Shown here in pieces: positions 518-958 of a DNA stretch of 64,000 nt. Source of the DNA: Escherichia coli (lineage in GTDB: Bacteria > Pseudomonadota > Gammaproteobacteria > Enterobacterales > Enterobacteriaceae); the NCBI RefSeq assembly GCF_045037415.1, contig NZ_CP173438.1; one strand, given 5' to 3'. The position numbers were made by a program, and so were the translations under genes. Each line of letters opens with the position of its first letter. Position 1 is the first letter of the stretch. The notes under the pieces are model-generated. The model saw nothing but the letters and a program-made list of their open reading frames with translations, did no database searches and was not told the origin of the DNA.

Positions 518-958
518 ATGAGCAAGAAGAAGTTTTCTGTTGAGAATGAAGATCTCGCTACTGTTCGTACATCACTTCTTAATTCCAACCTTGTCCGGAA
601 GTTGATCATGGAAATGTCTGATGAAGACTTCAATCAAGTTAAGGATAACCTTGAAAAGGCCATTGAGCAGCGTAATGAGTTGAAGGATTCTTTGGCAATT
701 ATCAAAAAGTACATGGATGACGCAGGTGTAACGGCGGAAGATGTGTATCGTGAATTTGGCAAAAAATTACAGACGGGCAGAAAAAACGATTCAGGAGAGT
801 CTAATAAGTACAGGTATGAGTATAACGGTCAAATAATGTACTGGAGTGGACAAGGTCGTCGGCCTTCTGTTATTGCAGAAGCAATAAAAGCCGGAGGTTC
901 TCTTGATGATTTTCTTATATCTCAGGGCACATCATCATCTTGTTCTGATTATGAGTGA
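518..958 (+). CDS. H-NS family nucleoid-associated protein (island-encoded paralogue)
   Basis: 146-aa ORF; C-terminal YWSGQGRRPSVIAEAIKAGGSLDDFLI resembles the H-NS DNA-binding motif TWTGQGRTP...SLDDFLI; N-terminus looks coiled-coil-like. Confidence 0.75.
   Translation: MSKKKFSVENEDLATVRTSLLNSNLVRKLIMEMSDEDFNQVKDNLEKAIEQRNELKDSLAIIKKYMDDAGVTAEDVYREFGKKLQTGRKNDSGESNKYRYEYNGQIMYWSGQGRRPSVIAEAIKAGGSLDDFLISQGTSSSCSDYE

What the first reader, a model, noticed from the sequence alone, without database searches (positions are those of the whole stretch)
518..958. Island-encoded H-NS paralogue
A 146-aa protein with the H-NS C-terminal DNA-binding signature but a divergent N-terminal oligomerisation region is encoded among AT-rich island DNA and IS debris. 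Such paralogues can hetero-oligomerise with chromosomal H-NS/StpA and alter xenogeneic silencing, including silencing of the island that carries them.
Basis: partly seen in the sequence, partly recalled or inferred. Interest (0 to 1): 0.45.

Follow-up and report, generated by a model that had tools for sequence, protein, structure and literature searches.

The report
Divergent island-borne H-NS-family protein
An intact gene in an E. coli selC genomic island encodes an unstudied, very divergent relative of the gene-silencing protein H-NS; it keeps the DNA-binding end, but its self-assembly end is rebuilt, so it probably works independently of the host's H-NS.

Summary
Window 518..958 (+) is an intact 146-aa ORF in 37-40% GC DNA between IS remnants, inside a genomic island at tRNA-Sec (selC) of E. 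coli. The C-terminal third is a clear H-NS DNA-binding domain: Pfam PF00816 E=1e-11, W109/G111/Q112-G113-R114/P116 kept, and the AF2 model superposes on the Salmonella H-NS CTD at 1.6 A.

The N-terminal part is homologous to H-NS but heavily remodelled:
- It is 17% identical to H-NS, against 53-64% for StpA, Hfp and Sfh-type proteins.
- It has a 12-aa N-terminal extension.
- It has an exact 11-aa (three-turn) deletion in the middle of helix alpha3.
- R12 and K57 are lost.
- It has a Ser-rich acidic C-terminal tail.

Full-length family members occur in 323 of 5426 complete E. coli genomes as two alleles 62% identical (dN/dS 0.46), always on related tRNA-linked islands. In intact loci the gene sits next to an AlpA/ProQ-FinO backbone module. 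RefSeq already calls it "H-NS family", and a 2020 review table lists weak hits to it. I found no functional study and no place for it in the published clade scheme.

The "island-encoded H-NS paralogue" reading is supported. Hetero-oligomerisation with H-NS/StpA is untested, and the sequence argues against it. This is a new member of a known kind, of modest interest.

The parts
518..958 (+). hns-like gene, 146 aa plus stop (RefSeq WP_000038137.1, 'H-NS family nucleoid-associated regulatory protein')
   Evidence: The ORF is listed. It is 100% identical to annotated CDSs in many E. coli chromosomes. A family HMM aligns it end to end at 98 bits.
518..553 (+). [quoted passage not shown] The IncX HppX protein shares part of it (6 extra residues).
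   Evidence: Alignments. The extension is conserved in allele B, which supports the annotated start codon.
554..772 (+). Codons 13-85: the helical N-terminal (oligomerisation-type) domain. The AF2 model has helices at 8-21, 23-32, 35-69 and 73-85. An 11-residue deletion relative to the family lies between N53 and E54 (nt 676/677).
   Evidence: AF2 model with pLDDT 96-97 across residues 20-80. The HMM alignment places the single deletion at H-NS ~42-52. The alpha3-to-G69 span is 37 residues here, against 48 in 58 of 71 homologues.
773..805 (+). Codons 86-96: the flexible linker. The wider stretch aa 81-96 (GKKLQTGRKNDSGESN) is less basic than the H-NS hinge, net +2 against +5 for H-NS 80-95.
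   Evidence: pLDDT falls to 59-74 here. Residue table and charge count.
806..919 (+). Codons 97-134: the H-NS-type DNA-binding domain, a beta-hairpin at 98-109 and a helix at 117-124. The Q112-G113-R114 AT-hook-like motif is at nt 851-859.
   Evidence: Pfam PF00816 E=1.1e-11. PDB sequence hits to StpA, H-NS and Ler C-terminal domains. Foldseek top hit 2L93, probability 1.00, rmsd 1.6 A. 58% identical to H-NS residues 96-135.
920..955 (+). Codons 135-146: a Ser-rich acidic C-terminal tail (SQGTSSSCSDYE), absent from H-NS and StpA and resembling the IncX HppX tail (KKDASSSAGDEQ).
   Evidence: Low pLDDT.
408..517 (+). About 100 bp of upstream DNA conserved between the two alleles (putative promoter and 5' UTR). 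The only Shine-Dalgarno candidate is a weak GAG about 10 nt before the ATG.
   Evidence: Alignment of window 301-517 with ABU 83972 L015 9589-10000. The sigma-70 consensus scan found no promoter here, so the promoter is inferred, not shown.
1..393 (-). End of an IS3-family element (annotated as a frameshifted transposase up to about nt 297). It abuts the conserved upstream region about 125 bp from the ATG.
   Evidence: Annotation (L001 19223-19998 corresponds to the window up to 297). Placing the terminal repeat at about 393 is my own reading of the sequence against IS2 recalled from memory.
1226..2015 (.). Downstream IS debris: an IS256-family N-terminal fragment (1226-1354, +) and an IS21 istA fragment (1386-2015, -).
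   Evidence: Annotation. The identical debris block occurs in unrelated strains.

Best explanation
The ORF is a real, maintained gene. It encodes a full-length but strongly divergent member of the H-NS family and is carried as backbone cargo of a family of tRNA-linked E. coli genomic islands.

Shown here:
- It has an H-NS-type C-terminal domain with the QGR minor-groove hook intact.
- Its four-helix N-terminal domain is collinear with the H-NS oligomerisation domain.
- The inter-site helix alpha3 is exactly 11 residues (three turns) shorter, the N-terminus carries 12 extra residues, and there is an acidic Ser-rich tail.

Inferred mechanism: the protein binds AT-rich, curved DNA such as its own 33-40% GC island through the QGR hook. 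It self-assembles head-to-head and tail-to-tail through its own versions of dimerisation sites 1 and 2. Because those interfaces are only ~7-24% identical to those of H-NS, because R12 (needed for dimerisation and Hha binding) and K57 are replaced, and because the spacing between the two sites is shortened, it most likely forms homo-oligomers that do not co-polymerise with H-NS/StpA or recruit Hha.

On this reading it acts as an autonomous, island-supplied silencer or 'stealth' factor. It would coat island DNA and compete with H-NS for the same sites, rather than acting as a subunit of host H-NS filaments.
For: - Family membership and DNA-binding residues.
- Collinear N-terminal domain: the family HMM aligns it end to end with a single 11-aa deletion (98 bits). 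AF2 predicts helices at 8-21, 23-32, 35-69 and 73-85 with pLDDT ~96. The hydrophobic positions of site 2 are kept (L59, I62, M66, V76, F80).
- Divergence from H-NS-interacting paralogues: N-terminal domain identity is 16.7%, against StpA 53%, Hfp 64%, Sfh-type 61% and HppX 47%. Substitutions include R12->N (D in allele B), K57->S/N and L30->K. The alpha3 span is 37 residues, against 48 in 58 of 71 homologues.
- A maintained gene: the exact sequence is on at least 1000 contigs, and two one- or two-residue variants are on 1000 and 800 contigs. Full-length copies are in 323 of 5426 complete E. coli genomes. The two alleles differ at dS 0.55 with dN/dS 0.46, and share ~100 bp of conserved upstream DNA.
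- Backbone position: in ABU 83972 the gene lies next to the Gp2-AlpA-ProQ/FinO module, and the same module is present in the window at 3209-6062.
Against: - No experiment exists on this protein, and I found no expression data.
- The sigma-70 scan found no consensus promoter, and an IS element ends 125 bp upstream.
- dN/dS of 0.46 indicates only moderate constraint.
- Low sequence identity does not exclude heteromer formation, because coiled-coil interfaces can tolerate divergence.
- About 100 genomes carry only a C-terminal remnant, so the gene is dispensable.
- Whether it silences or counter-silences cannot be read from sequence.
- Four of the five H-NS hinge basic positions are not conserved, which could weaken or alter DNA binding.
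Confidence: 0.5

Rival explanations
1. Ler-like counter-silencer. The protein binds the same AT-rich sites as H-NS through its C-terminal domain, but its unrelated oligomerisation surface prevents it from joining H-NS filaments. It therefore displaces H-NS and activates island genes such as tia, the AlpA/integrase excision functions or mobilisation genes.
For: Like Ler, its similarity to H-NS is concentrated in the C-terminal domain (Ler is described in PMC7074111). R12 and K57 are lost. In intact loci it sits beside the excision regulator AlpA. LEE and ler also occupy selC in some strains (my own background knowledge).
Against: Unlike Ler (VGR), it keeps Q112. The family HMM aligns its N-terminal domain along the whole H-NS oligomerisation domain, including a site-2-like helix-turn-helix, so filament formation is possible. 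It matches Ler's C-terminal domain worse than it matches H-NS or StpA (E=0.0015 against 1e-6 to 4e-7).
Confidence: 0.2
2. One reading: a third H-NS paralogue in the manner of StpA, Hfp or Sfh, which forms heteromers with chromosomal H-NS/StpA and so retunes global xenogeneic silencing.
For: This is the documented behaviour of StpA, Hfp and Sfh (PMC2814080 abstract; PMC7544231). The N-terminal domain is homologous and collinear with that of H-NS. R15, L8 and L33, and a conservative F at position 26, are retained.
Against: N-terminal domain identity is 16.7%, against at least 53% for every paralogue shown to interact. Site 2 matches at 2 of 30 residues. R12->N/D, L30->K and K57->S/N. The 11-residue shorter alpha3 changes the distance between the two interfaces.
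Confidence: 0.15
3. A functionally decaying relic: a passenger ORF stranded between IS fragments, poorly expressed or not expressed, and kept only because the island block spreads as a unit.
For: The gene is flanked on both sides by IS debris, and an IS end lies 125 bp upstream. No consensus promoter was found and the Shine-Dalgarno sequence is weak. Truncated remnants occur in about 100 genomes. Allele A is almost monomorphic, which fits recent spread rather than long selection.
Against: The reading frame is intact in thousands of contigs and in two alleles that have diverged to dS 0.55 with dN/dS 0.46 and no frameshifts. All invariant family residues are retained. The upstream 100 bp is more conserved than the coding sequence. 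Allele B sits in an IS-free context.
Confidence: 0.1

Closest known systems
H-NS / StpA (E. coli core nucleoid-associated silencers)
   Same: Same two-domain plan. The C-terminal domain is 58% identical to H-NS residues 96-135, with W109, G111, QGR and P116 kept. The predicted C-terminal fold superposes on 2L93. The N-terminal domain is collinear with the family profile.
   Different: Overall identity is 28-29% and N-terminal domain identity is 16.7%. There is a 12-aa N-terminal extension, an 11-aa deletion in mid-alpha3 and a 12-aa acidic tail. R12, L30, K57, K83, K89, R90 and R93 are not conserved. The scores are far below the NCBIfam equivalog cut-offs (47.5 against 202 for StpA; 34.4 against 211 for H-NS). 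The gene is accessory and island-borne.
Hfp / H-NSB / H-NS2 (serU/asnW island paralogue of UPEC and EAEC) and Sfh/HppH (IncH plasmids)
   Same: These are horizontally acquired, full-length H-NS-family proteins encoded on AT-rich mobile DNA.
   Different: Hfp (CFT073 L008:21330-21731) and the Sfh-type protein (L010) are 61-64% identical to H-NS in the N-terminal domain and form heteromers with it. This protein is 26% and 31% identical to them overall. It lies on a different island family.
HppX (H-NS-like protein of IncX plasmids; clade named in PMC7544231)
   Same: It is the best full-length match outside the protein's own family (BLASTP 32% over 154 columns, E=3e-19). Both proteins share an extended N-terminus and a Ser-rich acidic tail.
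   Different: HppX is plasmid-borne, next to a type IA topoisomerase gene. It has the normal 48-residue alpha3 span and keeps R12 and K57. It has RGR instead of QGR.
Ler (LEE master regulator)
   Same: It is an island-encoded H-NS-family protein whose similarity to H-NS is essentially limited to the C-terminal domain, making it a possible functional analogue as an H-NS-independent competitor.
   Different: The sequence match is weak (E=0.0015). Ler has VGR rather than QGR, is 123 aa long and has a short unrelated coiled coil (PMC7074111).
HlpC (sporadic chromosomal clade of PMC7544231)
   Same: It is a sporadically distributed chromosomal H-NS homologue of Enterobacteriaceae with little sequence variation.
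   Different: The paper describes HlpC as keeping R12, differing from H-NS only at position 33 among the five dimerisation residues, and having I, L, V, T or F at position 21. This protein has N24 at position 12, K42 at position 30 and M33 at position 21. No HlpC sequence could be retrieved for a direct comparison.

Membership tests
H-NS family (Pfam PF00816 + PF22470) | C-terminal H-NS DNA-binding domain above the curated threshold | tested here: met
   PF00816 scores 44.7 bits against a cut-off of 25.6, E=1.1e-11, covering residues 97-134 and the whole 38-position profile.
H-NS family (Pfam PF00816 + PF22470) | AT-hook-like Q/R-G-R motif with the flanking invariant W, G and P | tested here: met
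   W109, G111, Q112, G113, R114 and P116 are all present. W109, G111, G113 and P116 are invariant across 71 homologues.
H-NS family (Pfam PF00816 + PF22470) | C-terminal domain fold (beta-hairpin, helix, 3-10 helix) | tested here: met
   AF2 predicts strands at 98-102 and 105-109 and helices at 117-124 and 129-132, with pLDDT 94-96. Foldseek top hit is 2L93, the Salmonella H-NS C-terminal domain: probability 1.00, rmsd 1.6 A, target-normalised TM-score 0.68.
H-NS family (Pfam PF00816 + PF22470) | N-terminal oligomerisation domain (Histone_HNS_N) | tested here: inconclusive
   Pfam PF22470 scores 20.2 bits, below the 24.5 cut-off. However, an HMM built from 68 family members aligns residues 17-135 to profile positions 5-135 of 136 at 98 bits, and AF2 gives the expected four helices.
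H-NS family (Pfam PF00816 + PF22470) | Length-conserved alpha3 spacer between dimerisation sites 1 and 2 (48 residues from H-NS T22 to G69) | tested here: not met
   The span is 37 residues here, against 48 in 58 of 71 homologues. Only one other sampled lineage (P0237) also has 37.
H-NS family (Pfam PF00816 + PF22470) | Oligomerisation plus bridging or stiffening of AT-rich DNA, and transcriptional silencing | not testable with these tools
   This needs biochemistry (SEC-MALS, EMSA, tethered-particle or AFM assays) and genetics.
H-NS-interacting paralogues (StpA, Hfp/H-NS2, Sfh) | N-terminal domain closely similar to that of H-NS (about 50% identity or more) with R12, R15, L26, L30 and L33 largely kept | tested here: not met
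   N-terminal domain identity is 16.7%, against 53-64% for the interacting paralogues. R12->N and L30->K. R15 and L33 are kept, and L26->F.
H-NS-interacting paralogues (StpA, Hfp/H-NS2, Sfh) | Physical heteromer formation with H-NS | not testable with these tools
   No multimer prediction or experiment is available. This needs pull-down or two-hybrid assays.
HlpC clade (PMC7544231) | Sequence features reported for the clade: R12 conserved, only position 33 divergent among the dimerisation residues, and I/L/V/T/F at position 21 | tested here: not met
   This protein has N24, K42 and M33 at H-NS positions 12, 30 and 21, compared with the paper's text. The listed HlpC accessions could not be fetched, so there was no direct alignment.
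HppX clade (IncX plasmids) | Encoded on IncX plasmids, with a divergent (non-QGR) DNA-binding motif | tested here: not met
   All 506 places in E. coli complete genomes are chromosomal. The motif is QGR, not RGR. Identity to HppX is only 32-33%.
Ler | LEE-encoded, VGR motif, short N-terminal coiled coil, anti-silencing activity | tested here: not met
   No LEE genes are present in the island. The match to the Ler C-terminal domain is weak, E=0.0015. The activity itself is not testable here.

The most novel reading that the evidence does not exclude
This small family could be an 'orthogonal' H-NS system. On this reading, the three-turn deletion in alpha3 together with the rewritten dimer interfaces yields a filament-former that binds the same AT-rich DNA as H-NS but cannot mix with host H-NS, StpA or Hha. 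That would give the island family a private silencing or counter-silencing switch, sited next to AlpA and a ProQ/FinO-like protein, which controls island excision, transfer or cargo expression independently of host H-NS status.
Probability: 0.25. Interest if true: 0.55.

Novelty: new member of a known kind. Interest (0 to 1): 0.3.

Why it matters
Third H-NS paralogues such as Hfp/H-NS2, Sfh and Ler shape virulence-gene expression and the fitness cost of acquired DNA. All the well-studied ones either co-polymerise with H-NS or, like Ler, have lost most of the oligomerisation domain. This protein sits between those cases: it has a complete but re-engineered oligomerisation domain with a precisely shortened spacer. 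It is present in about 6% of complete E. coli genomes, including the well-studied strain ABU 83972. It would be a convenient natural test of how spacer length and interface identity determine whether H-NS-family proteins mix, and of whether islands carry private silencers. As it stands it is an annotated, uncharacterised family member rather than a new kind of system.

Tried and rejected
- Searches for the RefSeq accessions WP_000038137 and WP_000038249 in the paper library found nothing. Keyword searches (selC/leuX/H-NS-like/ProQ/AlpA) gave no paper on this protein.
- The genome-contig scan of 100,044 species representatives used peptide patterns from allele A only. It returned just an unrelated 27%-identical Rhodocyclaceae hit. 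This shows that allele A is absent from representative genomes, but it says nothing about allele B.
- I tried to decide whether the protein is the published HlpC clade. The accessions are listed but cannot be fetched, and the supplements hold no sequences. The rejection therefore rests only on the residue features described in the text.
- I tried to obtain expression data from the EAEC 042 hns/hns2 RNA-seq table. The stored supplement is truncated and carries no usable landmarks, so I abandoned this.
- Foldseek found no structural match for the extended helical N-terminal domain. Only the C-terminal domain matched. This is expected for a domain that folds only as a dimer.
- The promoter and terminator consensus scan found nothing convincing around the gene. 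The one 'terminator' lies inside the ORF.
- PADLOC gave no defence-system hit for the protein. PHROGs gave only an unnamed family.
- A 36-codon ORF that overlaps the stop codon (951-1061) is not conserved in allele B and I dismissed it.
- I considered a fused-dimer AlphaFold run and did not run it. The tool returns no coordinates or contacts, and only one job remained, so homo- and hetero-dimers could not be compared.

Full report
**1. The observation**

Window 518..958 (+) is an intact ATG-to-TGA ORF of 146 codons. Its C-terminal third matches the Pfam H-NS DNA-binding domain well above threshold: PF00816 scores 44.7 bits against a cut-off of 25.6, E=1.1e-11, over residues 97-134. A sequence search of the PDB hits only the C-terminal domains of StpA (E=3.7e-7), H-NS (1e-6 and 1.5e-5) and Ler (1.5e-3).

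The N-terminal part matches Pfam Histone_HNS_N only below threshold (20.2 against 24.5 bits). The NCBIfam equivalog models for StpA and H-NS are missed by a wide margin (47.5 against 202 bits; 34.4 against 211 bits).

The ORF has 39.9% GC, and the unique 394-1225 segment has 36.8%, against 48.6% for the whole window.

**2. Where it is**

The window is E. coli chromosome. Its first 25 kb are 100% identical to strain 219 (NZ_CP020514.1) and several other strains. The gene lies in an island of about 46 kb between setC and tRNA-Sec (window 32525-32619).

The island carries:
- a CP4-type yee/cbtA module;
- Gp2/YagK-YfjJ-type genes, an AlpA-type regulator and a small ProQ/FinO-family protein;
- a mobI(A/C) homologue, RhuM and a type I R-M system;
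- tia, a phosphoethanolamine transferase and an integrase.

The hns-like gene is flanked by IS remnants. A frameshifted transposase lies upstream, and an IS256 fragment and an IS21 istA fragment lie downstream. The same debris block surrounds the gene in unrelated human, swine and pangolin isolates and in a 62-kb circular record deposited as a plasmid. The block is therefore inherited as a unit.

**3. Distribution and integrity**

The exact protein is on at least 1000 contigs. Two variants that differ by one or two residues (A14S; A14S plus S23F) are on 1000 and 800 contigs.

A blastn search of the ORF against 5426 complete E. coli genomes finds 438 carriers, all chromosomal, with up to three places per genome. 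Of these, 323 carry at least 80% of the gene. They fall into three groups:
- allele A (this one, at least 95% identity): 143 genomes;
- allele B (about 75% nucleotide and 62% amino-acid identity; WP_000038249.1; for example ABU 83972): about 188 genomes;
- C-terminal-half remnants (for example EAEC 55989): about 100 genomes.

A vs B gives dS 0.55, dN 0.25 and dN/dS 0.46, similar in both halves of the protein. The 100 bp before the start codon are better conserved than the coding sequence. This is a maintained gene under moderate purifying selection, not a chance ORF or an obvious pseudogene.

Outside this family it is isolated. Among 1.84 billion 50%-identity cluster representatives, the only full-length close relative is allele B. 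Everything else is at most ~40% identical.

**4. Anatomy**

A profile built from 68 diverse H-NS homologues aligns the protein from residue 17 to 135 against profile positions 5-135 of 136 (98 bits). The alignment has one gap: an 11-residue deletion at the acidic/alanine-rich middle of helix alpha3, roughly H-NS residues 42-52. It also shows about 12 extra N-terminal residues.

The span from the start of alpha3 to the conserved Gly (H-NS T22-G69) is exactly 48 residues in 58 of 71 sampled homologues, and 37 here. Eleven residues is three helical turns. The two dimerisation sites would therefore keep their angular register but come about 16 A closer; that distance and its consequence are my inference.

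AlphaFold2 (71-sequence alignment, mean pLDDT 84.6) predicts:
- helices at 8-21, 23-32, 35-69 and 73-85;
- a low-confidence linker;
- a beta-hairpin at 98-109 and helices at 117-124 and 129-132.

The model's best structural match is the Salmonella H-NS C-terminal domain 2L93 (probability 1.00, rmsd 1.6 A).

The residue-level comparison gives:
- C-terminal domain: 58% identical to H-NS, comparable to Hfp (62%) and HppX (63%). Y97, Y99, W109, G111, Q112, G113, R114 and P116 are kept; T110->S and T115->R.
- N-terminal domain: 16.7% identical to H-NS, against 53% for StpA, 64% for Hfp, 61% for an Sfh-type protein and 47% for HppX. Site 2 matches at 2 of 30 residues.
- Substitutions: R12->N (D in allele B), L30->K, K57->S (N in allele B), and the hinge positions K83->L, K89->N, R90->D and R93->E.
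- Linker net charge: +2, against +5 in H-NS.

The 12-residue tail SQGTSSSCSDYE and part of the N-terminal extension resemble the IncX-plasmid protein HppX. HppX is the best full-length match outside the family (32% identity, E=3e-19). Unlike this protein, it has a normal alpha3, keeps R12 and K57, and carries RGR.

**5. Context clue**

In ABU 83972, allele B sits in an IS-free arrangement: Gp2 - hyp - AlpA - hyp - ProQ/FinO - hyp - hns-like. A 189-aa unknown protein and a dGTPase-type defence gene follow it. The metagenomic contig carrying allele B shows the same downstream pair.

In the window the same Gp2-hyp-AlpA-hyp-ProQ/FinO module lies at 3209-6062, downstream of the gene. A second Gp2 gene lies upstream, outside the window. 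The hns-like gene therefore belongs to the regulatory backbone of this island family. The selC island here looks like two related islands fused, with IS-mediated loss between them; that reconstruction is my inference.

**6. Mechanism**

What is shown: the protein has a competent-looking H-NS DNA-binding domain, joined by a flexible linker to a collinear but rebuilt oligomerisation domain.

What is inferred: it binds AT-rich DNA through the QGR hook, as H-NS does (established for H-NS and Ler; PMC7544231, and PMC3219716 abstract). It self-associates through its own site-1 and site-2 surfaces.

Every paralogue documented to form heteromers with H-NS has an N-terminal domain more than 50% identical to it and keeps R12. 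This protein has 17% identity, lacks R12 and K57, and has a shorter spacer. I therefore consider autonomous homo-oligomers that compete with, rather than join, H-NS/StpA/Hha the most likely mode (about 0.5). In that mode it would act as an island-supplied silencer or 'stealth' factor.

The rivals are:
- a Ler-like counter-silencer (0.2);
- a poorly expressed relic (0.1).

None of these can be separated without experiments or multimer modelling.

**7. Comparison with what is known**

RefSeq already annotates the gene as an H-NS family protein.

The phylogenetic scheme of Fitzgerald et al. 2020 (PMC7544231) defines the clades H-NS, StpA, Hfp, HlpC and HlpP, plus six plasmid clades. The features it gives for HlpC (R12 kept; only position 33 changed; I/L/V/T/F at position 21) do not fit this protein (N, K and M at positions 12, 30 and 21). 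The HlpC sequences could not be retrieved for a direct test.

The review by Pina-Iturbe et al. 2020 (PMC7074111) discusses only H-NST, Ler and Hfp as island-encoded homologues in E. coli. Its Table S1, however, lists weak tBLASTn hits (E of about 2e-4 to 8e-4) in islands of ABU 83972, 55989, SMS-3-5, 042 and Salmonella Heidelberg SL476. The ABU 83972 and 55989 entries lie at tRNA-Leu, and those two genomes carry allele B and the remnant found here, so they very probably are the same loci. The family has thus been glimpsed but not described. I found no functional work on it.

**8. Verdict**

This is a genuine, already-annotated but uncharacterised and unusually divergent H-NS-family gene, and a new member of a known kind. 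The specific new observations are:
- the exact three-turn deletion in alpha3;
- the N- and C-terminal extensions shared in part with IncX HppX;
- the loss of the residues needed for H-NS and Hha interaction;
- the two-allele population structure;
- the backbone position beside AlpA and ProQ/FinO.

Interest is modest (0.3). It would rise if the protein proved to be an orthogonal silencer or an island-specific counter-silencer.

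Noticed in passing
window 1-393 and 1226-2015: The IS remnants around the gene are identical in unrelated human, swine and pangolin E. coli isolates: an IS3-family end, an IS256 N-terminal fragment and an IS21 istA fragment. A second IS256 fragment (the C-terminal part, same orientation) lies just upstream of the window in strain 219. The gene may therefore once have sat between two direct IS256-family copies.
   Followed up: partly
window 3209-6062: A Gp2/YagK-YfjJ - hyp - AlpA - hyp - ProQ/FinO(114 aa, minus strand) module. In ABU 83972 the same module lies immediately upstream of the allele-B hns-like gene. The selC island in the window looks like two related islands fused in tandem.
   Followed up: partly
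window 2001-3000: About 1.2 kb of 32.8% GC DNA, with only short ORFs made of low-complexity hydrophobic sequence, upstream of the Gp2-type gene. It is a likely H-NS target. No Rfam family matched.
   Followed up: partly
window 11187-12320 and 12734-13867: Two tandem copies of a 377-aa IS110-type (ISEc45) transposase gene lie here. The first 25 kb of the window map onto only about 23.45 kb of strain 219, and a second copy here would account for roughly that 1.5 kb.
   Followed up: no
window 15404-15790: A mobI(A/C)-type gene sits in a chromosomal island. This suggests the island could be mobilised by IncA/C conjugative plasmids, as described for SGI1-like and MGI elements (my own background knowledge).
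   Followed up: no
window 15848-25389: A RhuM-family gene, a complete type I restriction-modification system (R 18314-21550, S 21550-22836, M 22836-24815) and a RelB/DinJ-type antitoxin gene.
   Followed up: no
window 26763-32619: The tia invasion outer-membrane protein gene, a 500-aa phosphoethanolamine transferase gene (27693-29195), a TPR protein gene, the island integrase (31036-32226) and tRNA-Sec (32525-32619).
   Followed up: no
L015 10852-12754 (E. coli ABU 83972) and L004 1671-3572: Allele B of the hns-like gene is followed by a convergent 189-aa unknown protein and a dGTPase-type anti-phage defence gene (PADLOC dGTPase, E=1.9e-109).
   Followed up: partly
L003 (CP057032.1, 62,375-bp circular 'plasmid', non-mobilizable): This record carries the same island block (yee-type module, Gp2, restriction endonuclease, IS66, astA/EAST1, the hns-like gene and AlpA) next to an F4/K88-type fimbrial operon. 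It may be an excised or circularised island, or an assembly artefact.
   Followed up: no
window 951-1061: A 36-codon hydrophobic ORF (MSDTSNRLNVAVMLAFDAYMAALPFIVLVTNWSSWT) overlaps the hns-like stop codon. It is not conserved downstream of allele B, so it is probably spurious.
   Followed up: yes
P0119 (metagenomic, 146 aa): An apparent recombinant: its N-terminal half resembles allele B and its C-terminal half is identical to allele A. This points to recombination between the two alleles.
   Followed up: no
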